Shown here piece by piece: positions 1-55,172 of a DNA stretch of 64,000 nucleotides. The first letter of the stretch is position 1, and each line of letters opens with the position of its first letter. This stretch comes from Patescibacteria group bacterium (GTDB lineage Bacteria > Patescibacteriota > Microgenomatia > UBA12405). The stretch spans positions 381,760 through 445,759 of the forward strand of contig JBBTXE010000001.1 in the NCBI GenBank assembly GCA_038062455.1. The letters run 5' to 3'. A program made the translations under genes and the position numbers. The notes under the pieces were generated by a model that worked only from the letters and a program-made list of their open reading frames with translations, had not been told where the DNA came from and ran no database searches.

Positions 1-1065
1 AATTTTCTGACATCCCTAAACTGGCCCCATTCCCGCCAATATGTCAGTCTCTTTAACGAACCCAATCAGGGTAAAGAATGGGGTGGGGGAGTCGACGCCA
101 AAAACTATGCCGAAATCTCCATCTATGCCGCCAAACGTCTAAAAGAATCAAACCCTAATTTTTTTGTCTTAAGCGGGGGTCTGGATCTGGCCGCTCCTCA
201 AAAAGCACCCAATTTTGAATCAGCCGGATCCTTCTATCAACAGATTCACCAATATAAACCGGAGTTTTTTGATTTAATTGACGCTTTAGCGTCTCACTCC
301 TATCCCAACCATGGCTTTGTCGGCCTCCCCACTGACAATGGTCAGCATTCCATCCGCGGTTATCAATGGGAATTATCTTTTTTGAAAAATCTTGGAGTTA
401 AAAAAGAACTGCCGGTTTTTATCACTGAAACCGGCTGGCCCCATCGGGAAGGGGAAACCCGGAACAACAGCTTTTATACCTCCAAAACTGCCTCTAAACT
501 TCTACTTACAGCTTTAGATATTTGGCAAAAAGATCCACGTGTTTTAGCTGTCACTCCTTTTATTTTCAATTTTCCTTATCCCCCCTTTGATCACTTTTCC
601 TGGCTGCAAAAAAACGAAACTATTTACCCTGAATACCAAATAATTGTTGACACTCCCAAGTCCAAAAATTCGATCAATCAAATAAACGGGGTTAGGGTCA
701 AGACAATTAATCTGCCTTTAATCATTTTTGCCGGTACCAAATACGCCTCCACCCTCGAACTGGAAAACACCGGCCAGGCTATTTGGGGTGAAACTACTTT
801 TTGCCTAAATCCTTCACCCTCCCCCAACATCACTCTCACCCCTCTTTGCCTTGATCAAACCCGCCATGTTCTCCCCGGCCACTCAATCAAAATTAGTTTT
901 GATTTTCAAATTAACACACCCAATCTTTCCCTAGAAAACTTTTTATCTTGGGACAAATTACCCCGCTACAACCTCTCACCCTTTAGCCCCAACTCCCGTC
1001 TTTACCATCCCCAATCCGACTTTTGGGAAAAAATCACCCAATTTTTTCAAAGGCTTTTTAAATAA
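1..1065 (+). CDS. glycoside hydrolase, clan GH-A (GH5-like) TIM-barrel enzyme; 5' end lies outside the window
   Basis: Frame 1 is open from nt 1 to the TAA at 1063-1065. The translation has NEPN (acid/base-like) and ITETGW (nucleophile-like) motifs typical of clan GH-A. Codon usage is host-like and C-rich. Confidence 0.45.
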   Translation, partial: NFLTSLNWPHSRQYVSLFNEPNQGKEWGGGVDAKNYAEISIYAAKRLKESNPNFFVLSGGLDLAAPQKAPNFESAGSFYQQIHQYKPEFFDLIDALASHSYPNHGFVGLPTDNGQHSIRGYQWELSFLKNLGVKKELPVFITETGWPHREGETRNNSFYTSKTASKLLLTALDIWQKDPRVLAVTPFIFNFPYPPFDHFSWLQKNETIYPEYQIIVDTPKSKNSINQINGVRVKTINLPLIIFAGTKYASTLELENTGQAIWGETTFCLNPSPSPNITLTPLCLDQTRHVLPGHSIKISFDFQINTPNLSLENFLSWDKLPRYNLSPFSPNSRLYHPQSDFWEKITQFFQRLFK

Positions 1066-1067
1066 TT

Positions 1068-1086
1068 TGTGAGCCGTGAGAGACTC
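1068..1086. repeat. 19-bp direct repeat (tgtgagccgtgagagactc) identical to the 3' end of tRNA-Lys at 4584-4602; attL-like
   Basis: Exact 19/19 match to 4584-4602, which covers the acceptor/T-arm 3' end of the tRNA-Lys on the minus strand. Confidence 0.6.
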
Positions 1087-1155
1087 CACATAAAAAAGTT
1101 TCGTGTTATTTGACTTATGAGCTTAATTAATCTAAATTCGTGTACTAAATAAAAT

Positions 1156-2103
1156 ATGGACGGAAGAGAGCAGCTTCTATCACAAATGGTTGATCACCAG
1201 ATATTAATCACTGATCGTTTACGGGAAGACCTCGGCACTCGTGATAAAAGTTGGTTTGATATATATGGAAGAAATTTTGATCCATCGGCAATGATATATC
1301 CGTTGACAATACGAAAGAGTACGGATAAGAAAACGAATCGTGTACCAGATTTATGGGCCATCCGAGCAGTAGCTGCTCATTACTTAGGTATGGCGCATCA
1401 TCCTCCAGTCTTTTTTTGTGACCATCGCTTTGATAATCCCAAACCTACGGAAAGCGACAGGCTTTTATATACTGACTGGGTTGAGTTCTGTCTTACGATG
1501 ACCGGCTTATTAAATTCCCAGGAAATTCAAAAAATTAGATCAAGGGGATGGTGGAACGAAGATATCTCATCGATACCTCCCGAACTTATTAATAAAAAAG
1601 ATGCAAATCTTTCCAATTTTGAAGAGGTTTGTGAAAAAATAGCGTTATGGAAGAAGGAGGGGTGGAAAGTAGCTTTGTTTCATGGAGCTTTTGACCCGGT
1701 TACCCTCACGCATCTGGAAAATGCAACCCATGCTTACTCATATGGGCCGATAACGGGGACTCCGCTAAAGTTAGTAATTGGGTTTGATTCAGATGAATTA
1801 ATACAAAGAAAAGGAAAAAATCGTCCCAGATACCAATTGGATGAAAGAAGAAGTCAGTTTGGTGCGTTTTGGATGGTGGATGGCACAGTTGTCCTGCGAA
1901 CTAATAAACCGACAACAGAAAAATTTGCTTCGGATTATTTAGCCTTAGGGGTTGATTATATTGTTACCACTAATAATCCACATGAAATAAGTACCAGGAG
2001 AGGGGCAATACTAAGATCATGTTTAGAACCGATTATAATACCTGAAAATCCTTTACCAAATGCAACCCAAATCTTGCAAAGAGCCAGATCAAGAAAATTG
2101 TGA
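1156..2103 (+). CDS. hypothetical protein with C-terminal cytidylyltransferase-like (HxGH-type nucleotidyltransferase) domain
   Basis: FHGAFDPVTLTH resembles the G-x-FD-x-x-H-x-G-H signature, and the following SD..RKG..RP pattern is as in RfaE domain II / TagD-type nucleotidyltransferases. The N-terminal ~170 aa are unassigned. Codon usage is atypical. Confidence 0.4.
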   Translation: MDGREQLLSQMVDHQILITDRLREDLGTRDKSWFDIYGRNFDPSAMIYPLTIRKSTDKKTNRVPDLWAIRAVAAHYLGMAHHPPVFFCDHRFDNPKPTESDRLLYTDWVEFCLTMTGLLNSQEIQKIRSRGWWNEDISSIPPELINKKDANLSNFEEVCEKIALWKKEGWKVALFHGAFDPVTLTHLENATHAYSYGPITGTPLKLVIGFDSDELIQRKGKNRPRYQLDERRSQFGAFWMVDGTVVLRTNKPTTEKFASDYLALGVDYIVTTNNPHEISTRRGAILRSCLEPIIIPENPLPNATQILQRARSRKL

Positions 2104-2110
2104 CAAACAA

Positions 2111-2198
2111 GTGATCTTATACAAACAAATTCGAACTCAATTTCGCGAAAACGCATTGTCGTAGCTCACCGCTCGCTATCGCTCGCGGTTCGCCCTGA
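2111..2198. repeat. IR-A left arm (~88 bp) of an inverted-repeat pair; partner is 2862-2948
   Basis: The reverse complement of 2862-2948 matches with ~66 bp perfect identity, then a few mismatches. Confidence 0.7.
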
Positions 2199-2861
2199 TA
2201 TTTTTTCCAAGCGCGATTTTGCTCGCTTCGCGAGCATATAATAACACAAAACTGCTTCAACTCCAAAAACCTAAACCTAACAATGTATGTTTAACGGGTT
2301 ACTGTCGAGTACTCAATCAACACCGTCAACTGGACCTTACCAAATCAAATCCAAATACCCAAATTATTTCTTCACAGATTTTACAATTTCTCCTCCATCC
2401 AAAGTTATCGAATCTCCAGGATTAAGGCGTCCTGTATCTATAACATTTGAACCATTAGCTTGCCTTACTGCTAATTCACAACCTGAGTTAGTACCTCTAA
2501 CAATTCCTACCATTCCGCCTATTGTACCTTCATGTTTATTTTTATCGTCCCGTGTAATCTTATTTACAATTCTCCCTCCCTGCCATATTTCTGCTGGTGC
2601 CATAATTAATCACCTCCTATCTTTGACAGCGATTATACCACTTTTTACTAGTTGAAAATTTTATGCTTAAGTTTTAAATTAAAAATGGACCCAGATATTA
2701 GCGAATTGCTTTTTTTAATGACGCATTCGGACAGAAAGAAGCAATTCGATCTGAGTCCACCGGATGCGTCATTTAAGTTTAAGAAGACAAAATCAGGAAC
2801 AAAAAATTTTTGCGTTTTCTTTTTGACTATCTGTAAAAATTAAGGTGTTCGAGCCGGCATT

Positions 2862-2948
2862 TAGGGCGAACCGCAAGCGTTAGCGAGCGGTGAGCTACGA
2901 CAATGCGTTTTCGCGAAATTGAGTTCGAATTTGTTTGTATAAGATCAC
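2862..2948. repeat. IR-A right arm
   Basis: Reverse complement of 2111-2198. It abuts the IR-B left arm at the shared 'cacac'. Confidence 0.7.
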
Positions 2949-3050
2949 ACTTTCAGATTTCGCAGAGAAGGCGGTGGCAGATGGCCGACTGCCACGCCAA
3001 GATTTGACCGAATCAAAGCCCAAATTGGGGACAAAAGAAAAGCGGAAAGA
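2946..3050. repeat. IR-B left arm (93 bp perfect, ~105 bp with one mismatch) immediately upstream of the recombinase gene
   Basis: Verified base by base: the reverse complement of 4495-4587 equals 2946-3038 exactly. Identity continues to ~3050 with one mismatch. Confidence 0.8.
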
Positions 3051-3081
3051 TAGAACAAAGGCGAAAACGCAAAAATTTTAA

Positions 3082-4647
3082 TTGATAACTGCCATGAAAT
3101 ACATAGCCTATTGCAGAAAGTCCACTGATGAAAAAGACAAGCAAGTTTTGTCAATTGATGCTCAAATAGCAGAACTTAAAGAGTTTGCCAAGAAGCAAAA
3201 CTTGGAAATTTTAGATTTTGTAGTAGAATCTCGCACAGCCAAAGTCCCGGGGCGACCATTGTTTAACGAAATCCTCGTGCGAATTGAGAAAGGTGAAGCT
3301 CAAGGAATTGTCTCTTGGCACCCTGACCGTTTAGCCAGGAATAGTGTGGATGGTGGAAAAATAATCTACTCACTTGATACTGGGAAGCTAGTTGATCTAA
3401 AATTTCCCTCATTTTGGTTTGAGAATTCACCTCAGGGTAAATTTGTACTCAATATTGCTTTTGGACAATCTAAATATTATGTAGATAATCTTAGCGAGAA
3501 TGTTAAGCGTGGAATGAGGCATAAAGTGAGAATTGGAGTCTGGCCTGTTCAAGCACCTCTTGGCTATTTAAATGACAAAAATACTAAAACGATAGTTATT
3601 GACCCTGTAAGATCCAAAATAACCAAAAAGGTTTTTGAGATGTTTGAGTCGGGAAAGCATTCTTTTACCTCAATTTCAGAATATTTGTTTAAACTAGGCA
3701 TAACTACTCGATTGGGGAGAAAACTTAATCCCGATACCATAAAAAGAATGCTTTCAAACAGATTTTACTTAGGTATTCTTAATTACAAAGGAGAGTTACA
3801 TAAAGGAATTCATAAACCCATTATTTCAAAAACGCTTTTTGATTCTGTCCAAAAGCAAATAGTTAAGTTTGAACGACCCAGAGAACATGGTCACGATTTT
3901 CCCTTTGTTGGTTTGGCTAAATGTGGTGAGTGCGGAGCTTCAATTACCGGTGAAGAACATGCTAGAAACTATAAAAATGGGAATTCTCAAACATTTGCAT
4001 ACTATAGATGTACTAAAAAACTTGGGAAATGCAGTCAAAAATACATTTCTCAAGAAGAATTTGAGCATCAATTAAAAGAAGAGTTACTTGATGTTGCCAT
4101 TCCTCAGGGCTGGTGGAGTGATTGGCTAGCTTGGGTTGAAAGAGACAAAATTAACGAGACAAAACTTGCAAGTCAAAGAGTTGTTGAGGTTGGAGAAGAA
4201 ATGCAGGAAGTTGATAGAAAACTAAACAAACTCCTTGATACTTATTTAGACTCAGTGGTTGATGAAGAGCAATACAAGGCAAAGAAAAATGAATTATTTG
4301 AACAAAAACTAAAACTTCAGGAAAAAATATCAAAAATTCAGAGTGGTGGTTCAAGTTGGCTCGAACCTTTCGAAGAGTTCTTAAAAAGCTCAATAAATTG
4401 CGGAAAAATCGCGCTTGGAAAAAATAATTTGCAAGAATTAAGGATTCTTGCAAGAAATGCCGGCTCGAACTTCTTTCTTTCTGAAAAACGCCTTTCTTTT
4501 GTCCCCAATTTGGGCTTTGATTCGGTCAAATCTTGGCGTGGCAGTCGGCCATCTGCCACCGCCTTCTCTGCGAAATCTGAAAGTGTGAGCCGTGAGAGAC
4601 TCGAACTCTCGACCAATCGCTTAAGAGGCGATTGCTCTACCGACTGA
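3082..4647 (+). CDS. large serine recombinase (resolvase/invertase N-terminal catalytic domain + recombinase domain + zinc ribbon + coiled-coil); the C-terminal tail reads through IR-B and into tRNA-Lys
   Basis: YCRKSTDEKDKQ holds the catalytic-Ser motif of serine recombinases. CGECG...YYRCTKKLGKC is a zinc ribbon typical of large serine recombinases, followed by a coiled-coil C-terminus. The stop codon falls only inside the tRNA (4645-4647), so the last ~45 aa are probably read-through. Confidence 0.75.
   Translation: MITAMKYIAYCRKSTDEKDKQVLSIDAQIAELKEFAKKQNLEILDFVVESRTAKVPGRPLFNEILVRIEKGEAQGIVSWHPDRLARNSVDGGKIIYSLDTGKLVDLKFPSFWFENSPQGKFVLNIAFGQSKYYVDNLSENVKRGMRHKVRIGVWPVQAPLGYLNDKNTKTIVIDPVRSKITKKVFEMFESGKHSFTSISEYLFKLGITTRLGRKLNPDTIKRMLSNRFYLGILNYKGELHKGIHKPIISKTLFDSVQKQIVKFERPREHGHDFPFVGLAKCGECGASITGEEHARNYKNGNSQTFAYYRCTKKLGKCSQKYISQEEFEHQLKEELLDVAIPQGWWSDWLAWVERDKINETKLASQRVVEVGEEMQEVDRKLNKLLDTYLDSVVDEEQYKAKKNELFEQKLKLQEKISKIQSGGSSWLEPFEEFLKSSINCGKIALGKNNLQELRILARNAGSNFFLSEKRLSFVPNLGFDSVKSWRGSRPSATAFSAKSESVSRERLELSTNRLRGDCSTD
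4485..4587. repeat. IR-B right arm, abutting the tRNA-Lys 3' end
   Basis: Reverse complement of 2946-3050. Confidence 0.8.
4584..4602. repeat. 19-bp direct repeat copy within the tRNA-Lys 3' end (attR-like)
   Basis: Identical to 1068-1086. Confidence 0.6.
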
Positions 4648-4658
4648 GCTAACGGCTC
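4586..4658 (-). tRNA. tRNA-Lys (anticodon CTT)
   Basis: Cloverleaf read from the reverse complement: acceptor GAGCCGT/ACGGCTC, D-arm GCTCAGTCGGTAGAGC, anticodon loop CTCTTAA, T-arm GAGAGTTCGAGTCTCTC. Confidence 0.8.
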
Positions 4659-4661
4659 GTG

Positions 4662-4733
4662 TGCGCCTAGGGGGAATCGAACCCTCATCACTAGTTCCGA
4701 AGACTAGGACTCTATCCGTTGAGCTATAGGCGC
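4662..4733 (-). tRNA. tRNA-Arg (anticodon TCG)
   Basis: Reverse complement gives acceptor GCGCCTA/TAGGCGC, anticodon stem CTAGT with loop CTTCGGA, and T-loop TTCGATT. Confidence 0.7.
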
Positions 4734-4750
4734 CATTATAACGAATATTA

Positions 4751-4826
4751 GGTATCCCCAGCAGGGATCGAACCTGCGGCCTTCTCCTTAGAGGGGAGAC
4801 GCTCTATCCAACTGAGCTATGGGGAC
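4751..4826 (-). tRNA. tRNA-Arg (anticodon TCT)
   Basis: Reverse complement gives acceptor GTCCCCA/TGGGGAT, D-arm GCTCAGTTGGATAGAGC, anticodon loop CCTCTAA, and T-arm GCAGGTTCGATCCCTGC. Confidence 0.75.
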
Positions 4827-4880
4827 AAATGTTAATGTAAAACAAGAGTATTTTACCAATTATATTGATAATATTTATTT

Positions 4881-4962
4881 TTCAATAGATAATACGTAGA
4901 GCCGCTGTGGTGAAATTGGTATACACGTACGCTTTAGGAGCGTATGCCGAAAGGTGTGGAGG
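4881..4962 (+). tRNA. tRNA-Leu (anticodon TAG), type II with long variable arm
   Basis: Acceptor GCCGCTG/CAGCGGC, anticodon loop TTTAGGA, a 13-nt variable arm, and T-loop TTCGACT. Confidence 0.75.
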
Positions 4963-5002
4963 TTCGACTCCTCTCAGCGGCACTAAAATGTTAAACTGAT
5001 TC

Positions 5003-5746
5003 ATGTTAGGTCTACTGCTCGGACTAGTTATGGCCCAAGAAGCCTCCCTCCCTGATCAATACCGCCAGGACTATTCCTTTCAAGTCAGTGAATATCAAAA
5101 AAAATATATCGATTACATCGATAAAAAAGAGATTTATACCAAATACCGCACCATCACCTCCAAAAAAGACAAAATCGATGCCGCCAAATCTGCTCTGATT
5201 GCCCGCAATACCATGTTAAAAAGTTATCTTCTGGCCCTTCGGGTAAATTTTGATTCGTTTAAAACTCTCTCCGGAATCACTACTCAAAAAATCCAAATTG
5301 AACTTAGCCGTTGGGAAGATTGGTGCCAGGAACAAAATCTAATCATCGACAACCTCAACAGCCAAAACGACATCAGTAGTTGGGTTGATGATTTTCAAAC
5401 CAAATACATTCCTATCCAAACTGTGATTTATACCGCTCTGACCCAAAATCAAATCAATCAACGTCTCCTCTCCCTCGAGCTTATTAAAAAACTGGCTGAA
5501 AATCTAAAAGCTAATCCCCAAACCGGTGACCTGCTAAACGACTGGCTTAATTCTCTTCCCGTCAAATCGGATCTGGTCTCCGCCAAATTAAAAAACGCCC
5601 AGGATCTAACCCAAACTAAACAATTAAGTAATCGTTTTATCAATTTTTACTCCAACGCCAAAACCGAACTAAACGAAGCTGACCGTTATCTTCAAAATAT
5701 GCTCTCTGATCTTAAGGCAGTTGCCATAAAATTAAACCAGTTATGA
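5003..5746 (+). CDS. hypothetical protein (coiled-coil rich, N-terminal hydrophobic segment)
   Basis: 247-aa ORF with host-like codon usage. Its stop overlaps the next start (ATGA). Confidence 0.4.
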   Translation: MLGLLLGLVMAQEASLPDQYRQDYSFQVSEYQKKYIDYIDKKEIYTKYRTITSKKDKIDAAKSALIARNTMLKSYLLALRVNFDSFKTLSGITTQKIQIELSRWEDWCQEQNLIIDNLNSQNDISSWVDDFQTKYIPIQTVIYTALTQNQINQRLLSLELIKKLAENLKANPQTGDLLNDWLNSLPVKSDLVSAKLKNAQDLTQTKQLSNRFINFYSNAKTELNEADRYLQNMLSDLKAVAIKLNQL

Positions 5747-6090
5747 GAGAAAACATCTACCAAAATATTGACCAACCTCTCAATAACCCTCTGGATGTCA
5801 CCCCCAAACCGGTTATTAAAAAAGACCGTCGCCTGATTCTTCTTTTGATACTCACCCTCGCTATTATTATTCTATTAGTCGCCAGTTTAATTGTCTCTCT
5901 GGTTCGAAAATCTCCCCGCCGTCTGACCACCATTACTCCTACCCCAATACCCACTGCCATTCCCACTGTTATCAATGAGCCCAATATCATCCCCAGCCCC
6001 TATCAATCCCAGTTCAAAAGCATTGAAGAAAATTTTAAATACAATTCCGAAATTCTTCCGCCCCAAATCGATCCCCAACTTGGACTCTAA
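5743..6090 (+). CDS. hypothetical membrane protein with Pro/Thr-rich linker
   Basis: The ORF has a predicted TM helix (LILLLILTLAIIILLVASLIVSL) and a PT-rich tract. It is translationally coupled to the upstream ORF. Confidence 0.35.
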   Translation: MRENIYQNIDQPLNNPLDVTPKPVIKKDRRLILLLILTLAIIILLVASLIVSLVRKSPRRLTTITPTPIPTAIPTVINEPNIIPSPYQSQFKSIEENFKYNSEILPPQIDPQLGL

Positions 6091-6654
6091 TCACTTTCTC
6101 GATAAATAAGCCCCGGTTTCGGTACTGATAATGATCTCCTCTCCGTTTTTGATAAACAAAGGTACCAATACTTTTGCTCCGGTGTCCAAAACCGCGTTTT
6201 TCATGGCCGAGGTCGCTGTATCACCTTTTATCGAATTCTACGCCTCCACAACCACACCGGCAATACTTTTAGGCAAAGTCACCCCTACCGGCTTTTCTTC
6301 ATAAAACTTAATCCGATATAAAAGGCCTTCCTTTAAATAAAGCTTATCATTCCCGATTACTCCAGCCGGAACCGAATACTGTTCAAAAGTCCTCGGTTCA
6401 ATAAAAACATAACTCGTCCCGTCAAAAAAAGAATATTGGGCCTCGTGGGTTTCCACAATTACTTCTTCAACCTTTTCTCCCGATTTATAGGTATATTCCA
6501 CCACCCGACCGGTATATAAAGACTTGAGTTTGGTCCGGTAAAAAGCCGACCCCTTTCCCGGAGACACAAAATGAATATCCACCACCATATGCGGCTCGTC
6601 ATGAAAAATAATATATATCCCTTTCTTAAACTGCGCCGTGCTGATTGTCCCCAT
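6091..6654 (-). CDS. efp: elongation factor P, interrupted by one in-frame TAG at 6238-6240
   Basis: The N-terminal 138 aa ([12 protein letters not shown]...[11 protein letters not shown]..) match the EF-P KOW/OB domains. After the TAG the same frame continues [48 protein letters not shown], which is the EF-P C-terminal domain. Total length is 187 codons. Confidence 0.8.
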
Positions 6655-6700
6655 AGATGCTAATTTACCTCAAAATAGACATTATTACAACTCTAAAAAA

Positions 6701-6940
6701 CTAAGAATCTACCCTTCTCACCCGATATGTTATCTCTGGAGGAATCAGTTCTCCATTCGAAGAAACTACCTGGCCTCCGGTTGATCCATCCGCACTTTCC
6801 TCATACCTTGAGAAAATAATTGCCCCTCTACGCAAAAAAACATCACCCGACAATCTAACACCTCCCACTAATTCCCATTGACCATCTAATAGATGTCGCC
6901 CCTGGGCTTCTACTACCACTTTTTGTAACATGCGATACAC
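6701..6940 (-). CDS. hypothetical small protein (uncertain)
   Basis: 79-aa ORF in a gap between efp and the next gene. No recognisable motif. Confidence 0.2.
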   Translation of the reverse strand: MYRMLQKVVVEAQGRHLLDGQWELVGGVRLSGDVFLRRGAIIFSRYEESADGSTGGQVVSSNGELIPPEITYRVRRVDS

Positions 6941-7072
6941 ATTATATCACAAAAAATTCCAAAAAAAAATCCCAGAGCATGCTTTTTAGAGGAGCCACCC
7001 CGGGATCTTCGTGTACTATATCAAAATATTATAAACACGTCAACAATGAATCTCCATTACACATTTACCCGC

Positions 7073-7696
7073 CTATGGCGGGCCTGCCTCTATCTCCTCA
7101 ATAAACTGATTGACCCCATGCGCCCACGAACCATTAGAATTCGGACAATATTTTTTCATAACAGCTTCGACAGTTAAATAACCCTTATCAAAATACTCCC
7201 GTTTTAAATATTCGGCAAAACTCTTTAATGCCAGCTCATAATTTTCGAAACGAAGTGTTCCTTTTTTGTGAATTCCATATCCCCAGCAGTTGTAGGAATT
7301 TACCGGAATTTTTTTACATAAATTTGACTCCTGCTGGGCAATCGCCGGAATCCAATAATACTCAAATCCATAAGTATCCGATAATTCTAAAATCAATTTG
7401 GAATAGGGAAGCAACGGGGATTTATATTTTCTTAAATATCCCTCAATTAACCCCAATCTGGCATCATCGGCCACCAAATTATCCCTAGCCATAACCACCT
7501 GTTCAAAAATGTTTCCGGAAACTTTTCCGGCCACCACCTTGCCCTCCCGACTCTGATATCCGCTAATTAAAACTGATTCTTTTTTCTCCGAAACTTTCGC
7601 CCACCACCAAACTTCAACTAACAAAAGTACCATTAAATTTATCCCTATCACCGACACAAAAACTACCTTTGCCACAGTATAAAAAATTTTTTTCAT
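7073..7696 (-). CDS. membrane-anchored glucosaminidase-like (peptidoglycan hydrolase) domain protein
   Basis: N-terminal TM helix, then a C-terminal region (IAQQESNLCKK...NCWGYGI...) resembling the mannosyl-glycoprotein endo-beta-N-acetylglucosaminidase / FlgJ-type domain. Confidence 0.35.
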   Translation of the reverse strand: MKKIFYTVAKVVFVSVIGINLMVLLLVEVWWWAKVSEKKESVLISGYQSREGKVVAGKVSGNIFEQVVMARDNLVADDARLGLIEGYLRKYKSPLLPYSKLILELSDTYGFEYYWIPAIAQQESNLCKKIPVNSYNCWGYGIHKKGTLRFENYELALKSFAEYLKREYFDKGYLTVEAVMKKYCPNSNGSWAHGVNQFIEEIEAGPP

Positions 7697-7732
7697 AAGA
7701 TTTCCTGACTTTATGCTATCATAGCTTTACTT

Positions 7733-8539
7733 GTGAAGACAAACTCAAAATTAGACTCTTTTCCCGATAAATCCTTCACCCTTAGCCTGACTGTTTCAAA
7801 GTCGGAGATTAGCGCTGAAAGGGAACTGGTTTTAAAATCCATTGCCCTTAATTTCGAAAACAAGGGTTTTCGTAAAGGCAAAGCCCCGATAAGTGTCATC
7901 GAATCCCAAATCTCTCCCCAAAAACTGCTTGAAGAAATAATTAATTCCCTCCTGCCCAAAATTTACTCCCAAGCGATTTCTGAGCACCAACTAAAACCAG
8001 CCACCTCCCCGGTAGTAAAAATAAAAAACCCACCTTTTTCTTTGGATAAAGACTGGGCAATAGAAGCTAACGGCGCCCAAATTCCCGACATTGCTATTAA
8101 CCCCAAATTTTTTTCTGAAATAAAGACAATAAATCAAAACAAAGATCAAAATAATAATAAAAAAACCGATGAAATTCTCAAAAAACTTATTGAGTTCTCC
8201 CGAGTTCAATTAGCCAGACTAATTATTGACAACGATCTAAACCGTAAACTATCCGACCTTATCGACCAAACTCAACAAGCTGGAATTACTATCGATTCTT
8301 ATTTAAAAAACCGAAACCAAAGTCTAGAGAACTACAAAAAAGAAATGGAGCAAAGAATTTCTGAGGAGTGGACTTTAAATCTGGCCATCAGCCAAATTGC
8401 TCTGTCTCAAAAAATTACCCCCGATGCCAAGGAAATTGAAGAAATAGTCAAAAAAAACCCAAAATTATCCTCAAATCCCGATCTGGCCTACTACCTTCTG
8501 ACTCAACAAAAGGTTATCGACTATTTACTAACACAATAA
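7733..8539 (+). CDS. tig: trigger factor (short form; N-terminal ribosome-binding domain plus part of the PPIase/C-domain)
   Basis: GFRKGKAP is the trigger-factor ribosome-binding signature, in an N-terminal domain of matching length. Confidence 0.65.
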   Translation: MKTNSKLDSFPDKSFTLSLTVSKSEISAERELVLKSIALNFENKGFRKGKAPISVIESQISPQKLLEEIINSLLPKIYSQAISEHQLKPATSPVVKIKNPPFSLDKDWAIEANGAQIPDIAINPKFFSEIKTINQNKDQNNNKKTDEILKKLIEFSRVQLARLIIDNDLNRKLSDLIDQTQQAGITIDSYLKNRNQSLENYKKEMEQRISEEWTLNLAISQIALSQKITPDAKEIEEIVKKNPKLSSNPDLAYYLLTQQKVIDYLLTQ

Positions 8540-8579
8540 AGTTCGCAAACTGTCTTATAATCTGATATAATACCTTCCT

Positions 8580-9152
8580 ATGGCAGGTATACTGGCATCC
8601 AAAACAAATCCTAAAAAGATTCAATCTCAAAACGCAGCTAACAGTAATGAAATTCTTAAGGACTCTCAATCTGCTCCTAAAACACCCCAAAAATTAACAC
8701 TTCGTGGAATTTTGGGCCTAAACCAACCGGTGGAAATCCACCCCGCCGCGGCGGGGTGGACTAAAGAAAATCTCGGATTAAACTATCTTGCCACTCAAGA
8801 AAAAGTCCTTTTAGATCAAAAACAAAAAGAATTGGAAAAAGCTGTTGCTGATCTTCAAGAAGAGTTGAAAAAATTAGTTTCCGCCTCTGAGGGTATTGGC
8901 TCTCAAATCGAAAATGCTGTTTTGGAAAATATCCCCCAAGCCTCTGAATATCAGATTTCCTTCCTGAAACGTCTCAAAAACCTCATTGTCAACTTCCGTA
9001 AAAACCTCAACCAAGCTTCCACTTGGCTGGAATGCTTCAATACCAAAAAGAAAAAGAAAAATTATTTTTGGACTATGTCTCGGGACAAAAAGAAAGGTGG
9101 CGAAGCCTATATGTTCAGCGACGAACATTCCGCTGCCAGAAGCGTAGCTTAA
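8580..9152 (+). CDS. hypothetical protein (Lys-rich; contains a 24-bp perfect GC palindrome at 8737-8760)
   Basis: 190-aa ORF with host codon usage. Confidence 0.35.
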   Translation: MAGILASKTNPKKIQSQNAANSNEILKDSQSAPKTPQKLTLRGILGLNQPVEIHPAAAGWTKENLGLNYLATQEKVLLDQKQKELEKAVADLQEELKKLVSASEGIGSQIENAVLENIPQASEYQISFLKRLKNLIVNFRKNLNQASTWLECFNTKKKKKNYFWTMSRDKKKGGEAYMFSDEHSAARSVA

Positions 9153-9173
9153 TTTTGCTATAATTCCCTCATC

Positions 9174-9250
9174 GAATCTGTAGCTCAGTTGGTTAGAGCG
9201 CATCATTGACATTGATGAGGTCAGAGGTTCAAGTCCTCTCAGATTCACCA
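9174..9250 (+). tRNA. tRNA-Val (anticodon GAC), CCA encoded
   Basis: GAATCTG/CAGATTC acceptor stem, D-arm GCTCAGTTGGTTAGAGC, anticodon loop TTGACAT, T-arm GAGGTTCAAGTCCTC, and a terminal CCA. Confidence 0.8.
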
Positions 9251-9278
9251 CAATATATAATGATAAAATCAATACAAT

Positions 9279-9551
9279 ATGAACGATAGATATATTAATA
9301 CAATAGAAAAATGGGACGAAAAAGCCCGGGAACTAGCCGCGCAGGCCGCAATTCCTGATAGCCCGGTTGCCCGAGCTCTCACACCTTATCTGACAGCCAA
9401 AAACCCTAACCTGGAACCATCCATTAAAACTTTCTTAATTGACCTTAAAGCTGGACTTTCGGGTGTCGGATTCCAATGCCGATATGGCGTTCACCCCCAA
9501 GCAGTCATTGACGCTAAAAAAACAACTACTACTTCGCCCGATGGGGCATAA
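9279..9551 (+). CDS. hypothetical protein
   Basis: 90-aa ORF immediately upstream of thrS. Confidence 0.3.
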   Translation: MNDRYINTIEKWDEKARELAAQAAIPDSPVARALTPYLTAKNPNLEPSIKTFLIDLKAGLSGVGFQCRYGVHPQAVIDAKKTTTTSPDGA

Positions 9552-9607
9552 TTACGTGCCTTAATTCGGGCTCTCTTTTTCCCTTATTTATTCTATAATT
9601 CTCCTAT

Positions 9608-11404
9608 ATGTCACAACTAGATTCTCAAAAGCACGATTCTGATCAACTTTATAAAATTCGTCACAGTGCCGAGCATGTTCTCCATCAAGCTCTGCTCAAT
9701 CTTTATCCCGAAAAAATATTTCCTGCCATGGGACCGGCTACCGACGAGGGTTTTTACATGGACTTCGAGCCGCTTGATGGCTTTAAAGTCTCCGAAGAAG
9801 ATTTTCCTAAAATCGAAGCCGAAATGCAAAAAATCATCAAAGAGAATCTGCCAATTATACAGGAAGAAATTAATATTGCCGAGGCCAAAAAATTATTTGC
9901 TAAAAACCCCTACAAAATCGAATGGCTTGAAACTATCAAAGATCGAAGCGAAATTATTTCCATTTACAAAACCGGAACAGAGCTGGTTGACCTTTGCGCC
10001 GGCCCCCATGTCACCTCTACCGGTGATATCAAAGCCTTCAAACTCCTTTCCATTGCCGGCGCCTATTGGCATGGCGATGAAAAAAACAAAATGTTGACCC
10101 GTATCTATGGCACTGCTTTTGGGTCAAAAGAAGAGTTGGAAAAATATCTTCAAGAACTCGAGGATGCCAAATTGCATGATCACCGTAAAATAGGCAAAGA
10201 CTTGGGACTATTTGTTTTTTCCGATTTAGTCGGTAAGGGATTACCCACGTTTGGACCAAAAGGTGCCACCATCAAAAGAGAATTGGAACGCTTCACTGTC
10301 GACGAAGAATTAAAACGTGGCTACCATCACGTTATTACCCCCGATCTGGCCAAGGTCGATCTTTACAAAAAATCCGGCCACTATCCCTACTACAAAGACA
10401 CGATGTATCCAGTGATGAAAGTCGATGAAGAAGAGCTCATTCTTCGACCAATGACTTGTCCCCACCACTTTATGTTTTATAAATCTCAAAGTCACAGTTA
10501 TAAAGAATTACCCTATCGTATCGCTGAAATTGCTCATCAATATCGTTACGAAAAAAGCGGTGAACTATCAGGCTTAACCCGCGTCAGAATGTTTTGCCTG
10601 GCCGACGCTCACATTATTTGCGCTAAGGATCAAGCTAAACAAGCAATCAATGAAGTTTTGGAACTTATAGATTTTGCCAACGAAAAATTTGGCCTGATTA
10701 GAGGCACTGATTATCGCTATCGTTTGTCTTTAGGAGATAGGAAAGACACCCAGAAATATTTTAAAGATGATGCTTCTTGGGACCACGCTGAGAATGTCCT
10801 GCGTGAAGTATTAATCGACCTAAAGGCTCCATTTTATGAAGCCGAAAACGAAGCCGCCTTTTATGGCCCCAAAATTGATATCCAAGTCAAAAAAGCTGGT
10901 GGTAAGGAAGAAACCGCTTTTACAGTTCAATACGATTTCGTCATGCCCAACCGTTTTGATCTGATTTTTACCAACAAAGAAGGTAAAGACGAAAGTCCGG
11001 TGGTAATTCATCGATCATCCATCGGCTGTATTGAGCGCACCATGGCTCTATTAATCGAAAAGTTCATGGGTAACTTTCCTCTTTGGCTCGCCCCGATCCA
11101 AGCTAAAATTATTCCCATCACCGACGCCCAGCACGAATATGCCAACAAGATATTTGAAAAATTAAAGGGGGAGGGGATTCGGGTCGAAATTGACAACCGC
11201 TCTGAAAAAATGCAGTCAAAAATCCGCGATGCTCAAATGGAAAAAATCCCCTACATGTTAATAATCGGACCCCGCGAAGCCGCGTCTGACGCGGTTTCTG
11301 TCCGCCAGCGCGACAATCAGGATCTAGGGGCAATAAGTGTGAATGATTTTTTAGCCAAAATTAAGGAACAAATTACCACCAAATCTCTTAATCTGATAAA
11401 ATAA
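9608..11404 (+). CDS. thrS: threonyl-tRNA synthetase (starts at the second additional domain; no TGS/N1 domain)
   Basis: HSAEHVLHQA is the SAD HxxxH motif. LTRIYGTAFGSKEEL, the class II core motifs and a C-terminal anticodon-binding domain are present. Confidence 0.9.
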   Translation: MSQLDSQKHDSDQLYKIRHSAEHVLHQALLNLYPEKIFPAMGPATDEGFYMDFEPLDGFKVSEEDFPKIEAEMQKIIKENLPIIQEEINIAEAKKLFAKNPYKIEWLETIKDRSEIISIYKTGTELVDLCAGPHVTSTGDIKAFKLLSIAGAYWHGDEKNKMLTRIYGTAFGSKEELEKYLQELEDAKLHDHRKIGKDLGLFVFSDLVGKGLPTFGPKGATIKRELERFTVDEELKRGYHHVITPDLAKVDLYKKSGHYPYYKDTMYPVMKVDEEELILRPMTCPHHFMFYKSQSHSYKELPYRIAEIAHQYRYEKSGELSGLTRVRMFCLADAHIICAKDQAKQAINEVLELIDFANEKFGLIRGTDYRYRLSLGDRKDTQKYFKDDASWDHAENVLREVLIDLKAPFYEAENEAAFYGPKIDIQVKKAGGKEETAFTVQYDFVMPNRFDLIFTNKEGKDESPVVIHRSSIGCIERTMALLIEKFMGNFPLWLAPIQAKIIPITDAQHEYANKIFEKLKGEGIRVEIDNRSEKMQSKIRDAQMEKIPYMLIIGPREAASDAVSVRQRDNQDLGAISVNDFLAKIKEQITTKSLNLIK

Positions 11405-53719: not shown

Positions 53720-54274
53720 ATGAAACTCTTTTTTGGTCTGGGCAATCCCGGTACTAAATATCAAAACACCCGTCATAATGTTGGGCAAACACTTATCAAA
53801 AAATACGTAGAGACGTTTTGCAAAACGTCTCTACAGAATAAGAACAAGTTAAATTCAAAGATCGCCGAAATCAACCATAATTTTTTTGCCGTCTCTACCG
53901 AATACATGAATAATTCCGGAGTTTCAGTTAAAAAAGTAGCTGATTATTATAAAATCCCTCCCGAAAACATTTACCTCATTCACGATGACCTTGATTTGGG
54001 AGTAGGGGAGTGGAAACTCCAATTTAACCGCGGTCCCGCCGGCCACAATGGTGTTATCTCCACCATCGAGCATCTCGGTACTCAAGCTTTCTGGCGCATT
54101 CGTATTGGAATTGACCATCCTCAAAACGGCGAAGCCGCGTTCGACGCGGTTGAAGATTATGTTTTGCGACCTTTCACTAAAGAGGAAAAAGTTATCATCG
54201 CCGAAACTACTGATAAAATAACACGAAGTGTTATCCCAGACTTGATCCGGGATCCACCCCAATTGGGCCATTAG
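53720..54274 (+). CDS. pth: peptidyl-tRNA hydrolase
   Basis: MKLFFGLGNPGTKYQNTRHNVGQ is the Pth N-terminal signature (GLGNPG..Y..TRHN.G). The conserved HDDLDL region is present. Confidence 0.9.
   Translation: MKLFFGLGNPGTKYQNTRHNVGQTLIKKYVETFCKTSLQNKNKLNSKIAEINHNFFAVSTEYMNNSGVSVKKVADYYKIPPENIYLIHDDLDLGVGEWKLQFNRGPAGHNGVISTIEHLGTQAFWRIRIGIDHPQNGEAAFDAVEDYVLRPFTKEEKVIIAETTDKITRSVIPDLIRDPPQLGH
53807..53834. repeat. 28-bp perfect P1 palindrome gtagagacgttttgcaaaacgtctctac inside pth
   Basis: Encodes VETFCKTSL. A half-site cgtctctac recurs at 53891-53899. Confidence 0.85.
54135..54149. repeat. ccgcgttcgacgcgg 15-mer (P3) inside pth
   Basis: Encodes AAFDAV. Confidence 0.8.
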
Positions 54275-54336
54275 CTTATCTGGTAGAGCACCGCATTCGC
54301 ATTGCGGAAGGGGCGGTCCGACTCCGCCATGGTCCA
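54265..54336 (+). tRNA. tRNA-Ala (anticodon CGC) with a G3:U70 identity pair; overlaps the pth stop by ~10 nt
   Basis: Acceptor GGGCCAT/ATGGTCC (G3-T70), D-arm GCTTATCTGGTAGAGC, anticodon stem CCGCA with loop TTCGCAT, and T-arm GGCGGTCCGACTCCGCC (atypical T-loop TCCGACT). Confidence 0.6.
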
Positions 54337-54474
54337 CAGAAATGGAGAATTCGGATCATCGGAAAGGGTTTTCGCTACGCTTTTTGTGACTTTAGTAAAT
54401 GTGCTATACTTAAAAAAGTTTTCCAGGTTATTAGTAAAAGCGTAATTATTAGGATGCATCATTTTTAATTAACA

Positions 54475-54900
54475 ATGATACGTTTTAAGACTTGGTTGAT
54501 GTTTCTTATTCCCACCATCGTTTTTTATACTAAAATTTATTGTTGGGCGGGGATGGGATGCTTTCCTTTGTTTCCGACCCTCGGTTTTTTGGGTGATATA
54601 TACGACGAGTTGGTATACAGGCCGTACGCGTATAGTGAAAAGTGGACAATATTTAACTCTCTGGGTTTCGATTTGGGCACTAGATTTAACGTACTTGATC
54701 CTATCATCATTGTAATAATTTCACTTGCTTCGACTTTCACCTATTTATATTTCATAAATAAATACATGTCCAGATTTCAATACAGTAAATCGAAGCGGTC
54801 ATTATTGTTTACCGGTATTTGGTTGGCCTTCATGATAATTTTCTCTATTATTCCATATTATGTTTTGGGGCAAATTGCACCCGGGAACGGGCCAGATTAA
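54475..54900 (+). CDS. hypothetical integral membrane protein
   Basis: 141 aa with 3-4 predicted TM helices. Codon usage is A/T-rich. Confidence 0.3.
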   Translation: MIRFKTWLMFLIPTIVFYTKIYCWAGMGCFPLFPTLGFLGDIYDELVYRPYAYSEKWTIFNSLGFDLGTRFNVLDPIIIVIISLASTFTYLYFINKYMSRFQYSKSKRSLLFTGIWLAFMIIFSIIPYYVLGQIAPGNGPD

Positions 54901-54933
54901 ATACTCCACTTACCGAAAGCACGCCGGAATTAC

Positions 54934-55015: not shown

Positions 55016-55033
55016 TCCGGCGAGTCGGGAATG

Positions 55034-55065: not shown

Positions 55066-55172
55066 TGCAAAGCCCTGTTTATACACGCAAAAAAGCCGCC
55101 GCAAATAAAAAGAGTAAAAGAAAAACGCAAAAATTTTAAAGAACTTTTCTTAAAACTTTAAAGGCGCAACCG

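What the first reader, a model, noticed from the sequence alone, without database searches (positions are those of the whole stretch)
1068..4602. Integrated ~3.5-kb element at tRNA-Lys(CTT), bounded by a 19-bp duplication of the tRNA 3' end and carrying a large serine recombinase
The 19-mer tgtgagccgtgagagactc occurs at 1068-1086 and again at 4584-4602, where it forms the 3' end of an intact tRNA-Lys. Everything between uses A/T-ending codons unlike the flanking host genes. The segment contains a recombinase gene adjacent to the tRNA. This is the classic attL/attR architecture of an integrative element. The unusual points are that the recombinase is a large serine recombinase rather than a tyrosine integrase, and that its ORF runs without a stop through the element end into the tRNA.
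Basis: partly seen in the sequence, partly recalled or inferred. Interest (0 to 1): 0.65.

Follow-up and report, generated by a model that had tools for sequence, protein, structure and literature searches.

The report
Serine-recombinase gene cassette at tRNA-Lys
A 3.5-kb piece of foreign DNA sits at the end of a lysine tRNA gene, and its recombinase belongs to a very large, apparently undescribed family of small mobile gene cassettes in Patescibacteria that target tRNA genes and carry an inverted spare copy of their own attachment site.

Summary
The 19-mer occurs only at 1068-1086 and 4584-4602. The second copy is the 3' end of an intact tRNA-Lys(CTT). ORF 3094-4647 is a large serine recombinase (LSR) with no stop codon before the tRNA. 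A related contig has the glycosidase-like gene directly followed by the uninterrupted tRNA-Lys, so 1087-4602 is a real insertion.

New here: the right 2.5 kb (2111-4588) belongs to a huge Patescibacteria LSR family found at the 3' ends of at least ten tRNA species. All members share one plan. A cargo arc is flanked by ~100-nt inverted repeats A/A', and a recombinase arc by D'/D. The integrated element therefore holds an exact inverted copy (A'|D') of the junction its own ends would form (D|A).

That junction looks like an LSR attP. A mimics the tRNA 3' end, with the T-loop motif TCGAAC displaced 4-5 bp outward, as expected for attP versus attB half-sites. The recombinase ORF gains a conserved tail and stop only when D joins A.

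The 19-nt repeat and the 1-kb left arm (orf315) are not predicted by this attP and probably reflect a second event. The role of the internal attP copy is unresolved.

The parts
1..1065 (+). Host flank: 3' part of a GH5-like gene (459 aa in full)
   Evidence: Weak Pfam Cellulase match. Aligns to L093 3295-2210 at 79%. Host-type codon usage.
1068..1086 (.). Left copy of the 19-mer: a displaced tRNA-Lys 3' fragment marking the left edge of the insertion
   Evidence: The three-way alignment with the empty site shows 18 nt shared.
1087..2110 (+). Left arm with orf315 (1156-2103), a cytidylyltransferase-like protein, and its own upstream region. Not part of the family plan.
   Evidence: CTP_transf_like 2e-6. 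Weak rfaE_dom_II / HldE-like matches. Homologues at 58-66% identity are stand-alone genes elsewhere, with no LSR modules nearby. Absent from L093.
2111..2196 (+). Module A, the outer end of the LSR unit. GTGA core at 2111-2114, then a tRNA-3'-end mimic with TTCGAAC. Inverted repeat of A'.
   Evidence: Inverted repeat of 86 nt at 98%. Family consensus and motif spacing.
2199..2220 (+). B', an exact inverted copy of B (4405-4426). A T-rich run at the inner end of A.
   Evidence: 22/22 match. Same position in 13 other loci.
2364..2603 (-). Cargo ORF orf79, function unknown. It lies in the cargo arc 2221-2836 and is transcribed in the same direction as the tRNA.
   Evidence: No Pfam, PHROG or NCBIfam match. 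Only L003 has a homologue, at 54%.
2803..2862 (-). Cargo-side leader motif (rc of GAAAACGCAAAAATTTT, 2803-2819) and C' (2837-2862, inverted copy of C)
2863..2948 (+). Module A', a pseudo tRNA 3' half that ends in TCAC (2945-2948), the same as the tRNA-Lys 3' end
2945..3044 (+). Module D', an inverted copy of the last 100 nt of the LSR gene. Together with A' it forms J', the inverted copy of the predicted attP.
   Evidence: Inverted repeat of 100 nt at 99%. Present in 43 loci.
3063..3081 (+). Conserved leader GAAAACGCAAAAATTTTAA upstream of the LSR start
   Evidence: Nearly invariant in a 34-locus alignment. Also precedes the cargo genes.
3094..4647 (+). Large serine recombinase gene. ATG at 3094, Ser10 in AYCRKST, first stop inside the tRNA.
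   Evidence: Pfam. SPbeta SprA 9dxh 2.4e-17 over residues 4-414 and A118 integrase 4kis over residues 167-435. phrog_95 integrase 2.2e-80.
4405..4480 (+). B (4405-4426), hairpin pal (4429-4453) and C (4455-4480, contains GGCTCGAAC), all inside the 3' coding extension. On the minus strand, pal plus the T-run of B' is terminator-like.
   Evidence: It is the only terminator-like site in 1000-5000. The pal stem differs in sequence but stays paired in other loci.
4489..4588 (+). Module D, the last 100 nt of the element. Coding, ends in the core TGTGA (4584-4588). Proposed P arm of attP/attR.
   Evidence: Open in the LSR frame in 43/43 loci, against 12 and 15 for the other frames.
4584..4602 (.). 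Right copy of the 19-mer, which is the tRNA-Lys 3' end
4585..4658 (-). Intact target gene tRNA-Lys(CTT), the last gene of a minus-strand tRNA cluster
   Evidence: 94.7% identical to the L093 cluster.

Best explanation
**What it is.** Bases 1087-4602 are foreign DNA inserted at the 3' end of tRNA-Lys(CTT).

**The mobile unit.** The active unit is 2111-4588. It is a minimal integrative cassette with one large serine recombinase and one cargo arc. It belongs to a very large family in Patescibacteria (Microgenomates).

**Inferred mechanism.**
- The free form is a circle in which the right end D is joined to the left end A through a short core (GTGA here).
- This roughly 45-bp pseudo-palindromic junction D|core|A is the attP.
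- The attB is the extreme 3' end of a tRNA gene.
- The recombinase reads the T-loop sequence TCGAAC as its distal (zinc-ribbon) motif. In the tRNA this motif lies about 13 bp from the crossover. In A it lies 4-5 bp further out, the usual attB versus attP geometry.
- Only the 2-6 nt core has to match the tRNA end. This explains how close relatives sit in different tRNAs.

**The split gene.** The recombinase gene spans attP. Joined to A, it ends with a conserved tail (..V|ILYKQIRTQFRENALS* here; NVFEQIRTYFK.. in the family). After integration that tail is replaced by antisense tRNA sequence.

**The internal copy.** Every integrated copy also keeps an exact inverted copy of attP (A'|D', 2863-3044) between two divergent cassettes. 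Both the cargo arc and the recombinase arc are therefore bracketed by ~100-nt inverted repeats and can invert. Flipping the recombinase arc would restore the full-length gene and place it downstream of the tRNA promoter.

**The left arm.** The orf315 arm and the 18/19-nt tRNA repeat at 1068 most likely come from an additional event at the same tRNA.

**Shown versus inferred.**
- Shown: the insertion, the domains, the architecture, the motif spacing, the ORF logic, and the existence of alternative arrangements in other family members.
- Inferred: the crossover position, the circle, any activity, and the purpose of the internal copy.
For: **Insertion**
- Empty site in L093, with a single copy of the 18-mer.
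- Foreign codon usage.
- The arrangement is the same in independent assemblies L001 and L002, colinear over 8 kb.

**LSR identity**
-.

**Family**
- More than 7,000 homologues.
- In 64 of 80 genome loci the gene ends in a convergent tRNA: Lys, Glu, Gln, Val, Leu, Gly, Arg, Trp, Tyr or Asp.
- The same genome has a paralogue at tRNA-Ser.

**Architecture**
- The A.B'...C'.A'.D'.leader.LSR..B.pal.C.D plan is present in the loci examined.
- D/D' identity has a median of 0.99 within an element versus 0.83 to the nearest other element.

**attP logic**
- A' ends with the same 3-9 nt as the target tRNA in about 45 loci.
- TCGAAC is shifted by +4 or +5 bp in 40 of 47 loci. This matches the 5-bp zinc-ribbon-motif shift described for LSR attP versus attB (PMC3783163).
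- In most loci the left boundary is X|core|A, with only a short core repeat.

**ORF**
- D is open in the LSR frame in 43/43 loci.
- The junction-spanning tail is conserved in the same frame in about 40 of 46 loci.
- Variation in the tail is codon-like: ACN, TTT/TTC, CGA/CGT/CGC/AGA.

**Alternative arrangements**
- Six metagenome contigs and about 6 of 120 family proteins have the LSR ORF ending in A.
- L100 ends A'.core'|non-D', as expected for an integrated copy with a flipped recombinase arc.
- In L063 a real tRNA-Glu takes the place of A'.

**Cargo**
- Cargo is variable: transporters, reductases, acetyltransferases, a peptidase/AAA pair.
- No phage genes were found among the cargo ORFs scanned, and there were no hits in viral contigs.
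Against: - No excised circle, attP junction or inverted isomer was found for this particular element. All contigs carrying the exact protein have the same arrangement.
- A circle junction D|A cannot be told apart from the internal copy in short reads.
- The family attP shares only GTGA with the tRNA. It therefore does not predict the 19-nt repeat that actually bounds the insertion relative to L093. Only 3 of about 43 loci have such a repeat.
- No empty site was obtained for a typical family member. The left boundary at A rests on repeat ends and on neighbouring housekeeping genes.
- The half of attB downstream of the tRNA is not conserved, which is unusual for LSRs.
- Canonical LSRs do not recombine attP with attL or attR, and they need a directionality factor to excise. 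No candidate factor is conserved.
- The conserved tail overlaps the conserved DNA motif, so part of its conservation is not independent evidence.
Confidence: 0.7

Rival explanations
1. One 3.5-kb element (1087-4602) moves as a unit. Its attP contains the 18/19 nt of tRNA sequence, and the recombinase crosses over inside that identity, for example in the T-loop where the repeat ends.
For: - The insertion relative to L093 is bounded exactly by the repeat.
- orf315 has element-like codon usage.
- In the window, L042 and L050 the long repeat ends at the same T-loop position..ACTC|GAAC.
Against: - Only 3 of about 43 family loci have a long repeat.
- The sequence right of the left repeat (CACATAAAA..) has no TCGAAC motif and no resemblance to A.
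- The inverted repeats A/A' and D'/D end exactly at GTGA (2111, 2945-2948, 4585-4588), not at the 19-mer.
- orf315 homologues are stand-alone genes elsewhere.
Confidence: 0.2
2. The recombinase is no longer an integrase. It is a resident invertase that flips the two arcs to switch cargo or recombinase expression, and the insertion is an old, fixed event.
For: - Both arcs are bracketed by near-identical inverted repeats in all family members.
- Alternative orientations exist in other members.
- No directionality factor is conserved.
Against: - The element is absent from a related genome.
- Close relatives (82-87% protein identity) sit in different tRNAs and contexts.
- Several copies and one relic occur in the same genome.
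- For this element, only one orientation is seen across 7 contigs.
Confidence: 0.1
3. The nested inverted repeats are assembly or amplification artefacts, such as chimeric inverted joins, and the true element is a plain attL-cargo-int-attR island.
For: Short-read contigs of this population break at the repeats, with 55-nt overlaps.
Against: - The same arrangement appears in an independent MAG and in a separate, independently assembled 276-kb ENA contig.
- It also appears in more than 40 unrelated assemblies from many studies, with element-specific repeat sequences.
Confidence: 0.01

Closest known systems
Phage and ICE large serine integrases (A118/LI Int, SPbeta SprA, phiC31, Bxb1)
   Same: - Same three-domain architecture, with detectable sequence similarity to SprA and A118 Int.
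- attP-like and attB-like half-sites share a distal motif shifted by about 5 bp (PMC3783163).
- The integrase gene lies next to one end of the element.
   Different: - The target is the 3' end of tRNA genes. Use of a t(m)RNA gene by a serine integrase was called previously unreported in PMC7192596, where it accounted for 14 of 297 cases.
- Only one attB half-site is conserved.
- No directionality factor gene was found.
- The gene spans attP and carries an extra ~80-residue C-terminal extension beyond the canonical fold.
- The integrated element holds an inverted intact attP copy.
Classical tRNA-gene genomic islands with tyrosine integrases (Islander-type)
   Same: - Insertion at a tRNA 3' end with the tRNA kept intact.
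- A displaced 3' fragment present as a direct repeat.
- An empty site in relatives.
- Foreign composition and accessory cargo.
   Different: - The recombinase is a serine, not a tyrosine, enzyme.
- The family core is only 2-6 nt at the extreme 3' end.
- The element is tiny: 2.5 kb with one cargo cassette.
Tycheposons of Prochlorococcus (bioRxiv 10.1101/2020.12.28.424599)
   Same: - Small cargo-carrying elements integrated at tRNA genes in streamlined genomes.
- A minority (27 of 937) carry a large serine recombinase.
   Different: - Different phylum.
- No homology was tested.
- Tycheposons often carry replication genes.
- Twin inverted attP modules and a split integrase ORF are not described in the preprint passages read.
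Tn4451/Tn5397 (TnpX/TndX) and SCC elements (Ccr recombinases)
   Same: - Small LSR-mobilised cargo elements that pass through a circle.
- From my own knowledge: a GA crossover for TnpX/TndX, and the circle joint creates the tnpX promoter.
- SCC inserts at the 3' end of a conserved gene.
- The window core also ends in GA.
   Different: - NCBIfam Ccr and XisF scores are far below the cut-offs, for example 114.9 against 900.
- Targets are tRNAs.
- Family cores vary (GA, GC, TG ...).
- A permanent internal copy of the joint is present.
SSV1-type integrases (attP inside the int gene) and yeast 2-micron plasmid / invertible-segment systems (from my own knowledge)
   Same: - As with SSV1, integration interrupts the integrase ORF.
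- As with the 2-micron plasmid, two inverted copies of the recombination region would divide the circle into two arcs, one of which carries the recombinase.
   Different: - SSV1 and Flp are tyrosine enzymes.
- Here only the last 13-17 codons are exchanged.
- Inversion has not been shown to be catalysed by the recombinase.

Membership tests
Large serine recombinase (serine integrase) | N-terminal resolvase catalytic domain with the nucleophilic serine | tested here: met
   PF00239 1.9e-19 over residues 4-149. Ser10 lies in IAYCRKSTDEK, aligned to the SprA N-terminus.
Large serine recombinase (serine integrase) | Recombinase domain plus a zinc-ribbon domain with an embedded coiled coil | tested here: met
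   PF07508 1.3e-15 and PF13408 4e-11. The alignment to SprA 9dxh runs to residue 414 and to A118 4kis to residue 435, covering the coiled-coil region.
Large serine recombinase (serine integrase) | attP and attB half-sites share a distal motif placed about 5 bp closer to the crossover in attB | tested here: met
   TCGAAC lies 4 bp (33 loci) or 5 bp (7 loci) further out in A than in the tRNA, out of 47 loci. The criterion comes from PMC3783163. That these are the true sites is inferred.
Large serine recombinase (serine integrase) | Excision controlled by a recombination directionality factor | tested here: not met
   No second gene is conserved across cargo arcs. A factor could be supplied in trans or may not be needed, so this lowers neither the domain-based membership nor the claim that it works like an integrase.
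Large serine recombinase (serine integrase) | Concerted double-strand exchange at a 2-bp crossover; unidirectional attP x attB reaction | not testable with these tools
   Needs biochemistry.
Integrative genetic element at a tRNA gene | Target tRNA intact, displaced 3' fragment as a direct repeat, empty site in a relative | tested here: met
Integrative genetic element at a tRNA gene | Excised circular form with an attP junction | tested here: inconclusive
   A pattern specific for LSR-3'-end -> D.core.A gave 6 true contigs from other family members. None was found for this element. The junction is identical to the internal copy.
Serine DNA invertase systems (Hin/Gin type) | Small serine recombinase with a C-terminal HTH; invertible segment between inverted sites; both orientations present in a population | tested here: not met
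   The enzyme is an LSR. Inverted repeats are present. Only one orientation is seen for this element. Alternative orientations occur only in other members.
SCC Ccr / XisF recombinases | Score above the NCBIfam equivalog cut-off | tested here: not met
   CcrB 114.9 against 900. XisF 110.3 against 375.
IS110-type bridge-RNA recombinases (considered because of the non-coding module upstream of the gene that is complementary to the element end) | DEDD/RuvC-like recombinase and a structured guide RNA | tested here: not met
   The protein is a serine recombinase. No Rfam family was found in 1-10000 at E<=0.1. Complementarity is 100+ nt inverted repeats, not short guide segments.

The most novel reading that the evidence does not exclude
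These are self-gating integrase cassettes that need no directionality factor.

- The integrase gene is complete only across the joined ends.
- Integration swaps its conserved C-terminal tail for tRNA antisense sequence and parks the gene behind a terminator (pal + B').
- The built-in inverted copy of attP lets the recombinase arc flip.
- Flipping rejoins the ORF to its tail and places it directly downstream of the tRNA promoter, so it acts as an on-switch for mobility.
- The internal copy is itself a live attP, able to react with other tRNA genes or with other cassettes. This would account for chains such as L108 and for L063.
- Target choice is set by a 2-6 nt core plus the universal T-loop, so retargeting among tRNAs needs almost no protein change.
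Probability: 0.25. Interest if true: 0.8.

Novelty: new variant of a known kind. Interest (0 to 1): 0.68.

Why it matters
**For mobile-element biology.** Serine integrases have been regarded as avoiding tRNA genes (PMC7192596). Here is a family with thousands of members that appears specialised on tRNA genes. The sequence suggests a simple reason: the T-loop serves as the distal recognition motif.

**For Patescibacteria.** This points to an abundant vehicle for accessory genes in small genomes. No phage, conjugation or replication genes were found in the cargo arcs examined.

**For recombinase mechanism.** Three features are open to direct test:
- the integrase ORF split across attP
- the obligatory inverted spare attP
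- the lack of a directionality factor

Together they suggest a control logic different from the phage paradigm.

**For engineering.** An LSR family might be retargeted by changing a few core bases next to a universally conserved tRNA motif. That would make it an attractive starting point.

Tried and rejected
- **Assembly artefact.** Rejected. Independent assemblies and more than 40 loci show the same plan.
- **The 19-mer as part of a longer tRNA pseudogene.** Rejected for the window: there is no similarity beyond the repeat, and L093 has a single copy. In L042 the short left arm does look like a decayed tRNA-Val.
- **Known RNA family in the non-coding modules.** None found in Rfam at E<=0.1. 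The A' minihelix idea was not supported by compensatory changes when I inspected the alignment.
- **orf79 as a conserved directionality factor.** Rejected. It occurs only in L003.
- **Prophage.** No viral-contig relatives, and no phage genes in the cargo.
- **Empty-site or variant contigs of the same strain.** None found; contigs simply break at the repeats.
- **A near-identical partner in the opposite orientation for the A-type contigs.** None among the fetched loci.
- **Upstream context of A-type genes.** Contigs L109 and L110 start at the gene, so the predicted upstream tRNA could not be checked.
- **Promoter scan.** Uninformative: 9 sites found against 9.0 expected.
- **B and C copies.** Only partly explained. 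B' is a T-run next to hairpins. C carries a TCGAAC motif.

Full report
**1. Observation**

The 19-mer TGTGAGCCGTGAGAGACTC is present exactly twice in the window, at 1068-1086 and 4584-4602. This holds even when three mismatches are allowed, and no shuffle produced any match.

ARAGORN finds tRNA-Lys(CTT) at 4585-4658 on the minus strand. Rfam confirms it at 73.5 bits. The right copy is therefore the 3' end of an intact tRNA.

The ORF starting at ATG 3094 has Resolvase, Recombinase and Zn_ribbon_recom domains. It aligns to SPbeta SprA over residues 4-414 and to A118 integrase over residues 167-435. It matches the PHROG integrase family at 2.2e-80. Its first stop, at 4645-4647, lies inside the tRNA gene.

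GC3 is 0.42-0.44 with C-ending codons in the flanking genes. It is 0.20-0.32 in orf315, orf79 and the recombinase (skew).

**2. It is a real insertion**

I searched for homologues of the downstream 247-aa protein and looked up their contigs. This gave L093, a 205-kb contig of a related organism with about 79% nucleotide identity in the flanks.

In L093, window 1-1086 and window 4585-4827 are adjacent. They overlap by one copy of GTGAGCCGTGAGAGACTC. The GH5-like gene is followed directly by tRNA-Lys(CTT), tRNA-Arg and the next tRNA (alignment).

Nothing beyond the repeat at 1068 resembles the tRNA, so the left copy is not a pseudogene.

All contigs carrying the exact recombinase have the same arrangement as the window. 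These include an independent MAG and a separate, independently assembled 276-kb ENA contig. Short-read contigs of the population simply break at internal repeats.

**3.

Inside the insertion there are two pairs of long inverted repeats:
- A (2111-2196) and A' (2863-2948): 86 nt, 98% identical.
- D' (2945-3044) and D (4489-4588): 100 nt, 99% identical.

There are also short exact inverted copies:
- B' (2199-2220) of B (4405-4426).
- C' (2837-2862) of C (4455-4480).

The outer ends of all four long modules carry the same core, GTGA/TCAC:
- 2111-2114
- 2945-2948, shared by A' and D'
- 4585-4588, where it is the end of the tRNA

Read on the opposite strand, the internal junction A'|D' is D|GTGA|A. 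That is exactly the junction the two ends of a unit 2111-4588 would form if joined.

The unit consists of two divergent cassettes:
- The cargo arc runs on the minus strand as A.C.hairpin.leader -> orf79 -> hairpin.B.A'.
- The recombinase arc runs as D'.leader -> LSR ... B.pal.C.D.

Both use the same leader, GAAAAACGCAAAAATTTT.

The hairpin pal (4429-4453), followed on the minus strand by the T-run of B, is the only terminator-like site in 1000-5000. It faces transcription coming out of the tRNA cluster.

**4. A very large family with the same plan**

The recombinase has more than 7,000 homologues, almost all from Patescibacteria/Microgenomates metagenomes.

In 80 loci from reference genomes, 64 have the recombinase ORF running into a convergent tRNA gene. 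The tRNA 3' end lies about 1,490 nt after the start codon. Ten tRNA species are used: Lys, Glu, Gln, Val, Leu, Gly, Arg, Trp, Tyr and Asp. Most of the remaining loci are cut by contig ends.

The D'/D repeat is present in 43 loci. The A/A' repeat with adjacent B' and C' is present in all 14 loci examined in full. The upstream module aligns across 34 loci, with invariant GTTCGAA and leader blocks.

D and D' are near-identical within an element (median 0.99) but diverged between elements. The median identity to the nearest other element is 0.83, and within exceeds between in 40 of 43 cases. This indicates concerted evolution of the two copies.

The same genome carries a paralogous element at tRNA-Ser. 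The window itself holds an LSR-less relic at tRNA-Ala.

Cargo arcs carry unrelated accessory genes:
- EamA and MFS transporters
- an aldo/keto reductase
- a CN hydrolase
- GNAT acetyltransferases
- a Mur-ligase-like enzyme
- a subtilase with an AAA ATPase

No gene is conserved across cargo arcs, so no candidate directionality factor emerged. No phage, conjugation or replication genes were seen. No relatives were found in the viral contig collection.

**5. The junction looks like an LSR attP and the tRNA end like its attB**

In about 45 loci the sequence after D is the tRNA at the right end and module A at the internal copy. A always begins with the same 3-9 nt as the target tRNA's 3' end (GTGA, GGTGA, GGTGC, GCTGG, TGTTG ...). 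It then continues with a conserved AT-rich stretch containing TTCGAAC.

The TCGAAC of the tRNA T-loop lies about 12 nt past the boundary. In A it lies 4 nt further out in 33 loci and 5 nt further out in 7 loci, out of 47.

Rutherford et al. (PMC3783163) showed that LSR attB half-sites carry the zinc-ribbon-domain motif 5 bp closer to the crossover than attP half-sites. The D end carries a related TTCGAT motif. D|core|A is therefore a roughly 45-bp pseudo-palindrome (my reading of the sequences).

From this I infer three things:
- D|core|A is attP.
- The crossover lies in the last few bases of the tRNA.
- The T-loop is the distal recognition motif.

Elements with 92-95% identical D modules sit in different tRNAs: Tyr versus Leu, and Lys versus Glu versus Val. 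Proteins 82-87% identical to ours end in tRNA-Glu-type tails. Retargeting therefore seems easy.

In most loci the left boundary is simply X|core|A, with only the short core repeated. Housekeeping genes such as hflX or greA lie within a few hundred bases.

**6. The recombinase gene spans the junction**

D is open in the recombinase frame in 43 of 43 loci. The other two frames are open in only 12 and 15.

If D is joined to A, the ORF continues in the same frame in about 40 of 46 loci. This gives a conserved tail..V|NVFEQIRTYFK.., with a stop 12-17 codons later. In the window the tail is ..SESV|ILYKQIRTQFRENALS*.

Variation in this tail is codon-like:
- Thr ACT/ACG/ACC/ACA at 14/11/9/1
- Phe TTT/TTC at 20/13
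- Arg CGA/CGT/CGC/AGA
- Ile ATT/ATC/ATA

The tail is therefore translated at some stage.

In the usual integrated state the tail is instead antisense tRNA (..GFEP..) of variable length. The canonical LSR fold ends near residue 435. B, pal, C, D and the tail thus form a family-specific C-terminal extension.

**7. The alternative arrangement exists in nature**

A pattern specific for recombinase 3' end -> D -> A matched none of the 95 loci then in hand. It matched six true family contigs in the metagenome collection, none with a tRNA.
- In L096 and L098 the junction is followed by B'.
- In L097, L100 and L101 it is followed by C.leader -> cargo.
- L100 ends A'.core' | unrelated DNA, as expected for an integrated copy whose recombinase arc is flipped.

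About 6 of the 120 best family proteins end with the A-type tail.

L108 shows a chain: tRNA-Lys | recombinase arc | cargo arc | second recombinase arc | A-like module plus type I restriction genes. L063 has a real tRNA-Glu where A' normally is. The arcs therefore behave as modules that can invert and concatenate at the cores.

I could not find both orientations of one and the same element. I also could not see upstream of A-type genes.

**8. The 19-nt repeat and the left arm**

The family attP shares only the core with the tRNA, so it does not predict a 19-nt duplication. Only the window, L042 and L050 have one, of 17-19 nt. In all three it ends at the same T-loop position.

Between the repeat and A the window has 1,024 nt carrying orf315 and its upstream region. 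Homologues of orf315 (58-66% identity) are ordinary stand-alone genes in other Patescibacteria, without any family modules nearby. The closest relative of the element, L003, lacks orf315.

The most economical reading is a composite: an LSR cassette (2111-4588) plus extra DNA (1087-2110). The extra DNA either entered the tRNA in a separate event or was picked up from a previous host together with 14 nt of tRNA. I cannot decide between these two. A single 3.5-kb element remains possible at about 0.2.

**9. Mechanism, with levels of support**

Shown:
- the insertion
- LSR identity
- family-wide tRNA association
- the twin inverted modules and their concerted evolution
- the motif spacing
- the ORF logic
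- the existence of A-type arrangements

Inferred:
- circle formation
- crossover at the core
- T-loop recognition
- loss of the native tail on integration

Open:
- how excision occurs without a directionality factor
- why an intact inverted attP is kept

My preferred idea has probability about 0.25. Inversion of the recombinase arc restores the full-length gene and places it behind the tRNA promoter, past the pal/B' terminator that otherwise shields it.

Alternatives are that the copy acts as an operator for the two divergent leaders, or that it is a live attP that builds chains.

**10. Comparison with known systems and novelty**

The enzyme is a member of the large serine recombinases by domains and by site geometry. 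The element works like a tRNA-targeting genomic island. It differs from the classical kind in its recombinase class and tiny core. It differs from phage LSR systems in its target, the missing directionality factor, the split ORF and the internal attP copy.

Mageeney et al. (PMC7192596) state that use of a t(m)RNA gene by a serine integrase had not been reported. They found only 14 of 297 candidates. Tycheposons include 27 LSR-bearing elements of 937. The LSR discovery paper PMC10083194 does not mention tRNA.

Searches combining serine recombinase with Patescibacteria, CPR or Microgenomates found no description of this family. Within the limits of that library I rate it a new variant of a known kind.

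Noticed in passing
window 54265-56130: There is a second, recombinase-less relic of the same element family next to tRNA-Ala(CGC) (54265-54337, +). The 15-mer GTCCACAGAAATGGA at the tRNA 3' end (54332-54346) recurs at 54998-55012. There it is the A'|D' junction of a J'-like module, followed by the family leader (55122-55139). A 226-aa membrane ORF (55173-55853) takes the place of the recombinase. A second A'-like module lies at 55887-55995.
   Followed up: partly
window 4751-4826 (-): ARAGORN calls a 'tRNA-Pyl' with anticodon CTA. Read by hand, the anticodon loop is CCTCTAA, which gives tRNA-Arg(UCU) with an unusual C33. L093 gets the same call, and L095 has tRNA-Arg(TCT) at the homologous position. 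TAG is used as a normal stop in the window.
   Followed up: partly
window 4901-4987 versus L093 1614-1700 and 9898-9982: The related contig L093 differs from the window by an ~8-kb inversion. Its end points lie in tRNA-Leu genes next to the tRNA cluster that holds the insertion site.
   Followed up: no
L104 6755-8654 (same genome as the window): A paralogous LSR element (P0067, 57% identity) has the same A/A' and D'/D plan. It abuts a displaced tRNA-like 3' fragment, which is followed by an intact tRNA-Ser(TGA).
   Followed up: partly
L108 4300-9900; L101 1-2736: Multi-arc chains occur. L108 has tRNA-Lys | LSR arc | cargo arc | second LSR arc | A-like module followed by type I restriction-modification genes. 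L101 has two convergent LSR genes flanking one cargo gene.
   Followed up: partly
L063 5796-7582: Here the recombinase arc is flanked by two real tRNA-Glu genes facing each other, TTC and CTC. The usual A' pseudo-tRNA module is replaced by a genuine tRNA.
   Followed up: no
window 2652-2843 (minus-strand 5' UTR of orf79): This stretch is conserved in L003, L006, L007 and in the second island (55147-55230). It contains local hairpins (2714-2730/2760-2776 and 2702-2715/2735-2748). There is no Rfam match. It may be a structured leader for cargo genes.
   Followed up: no
L037 7495-7560, L027 7489-7544, L006 7498-7560: A few family members end at non-tRNA sequences that still begin with the core. 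L037 and L027 share a conserved GGTGGAACC-containing target, which suggests alternative or tRNA-like targets.
   Followed up: no
protein P0001 (877 aa): This database protein is a read-through fusion of one LSR with the C-terminal two thirds of a second. It points to nested or tandem insertions in that genome.
   Followed up: no
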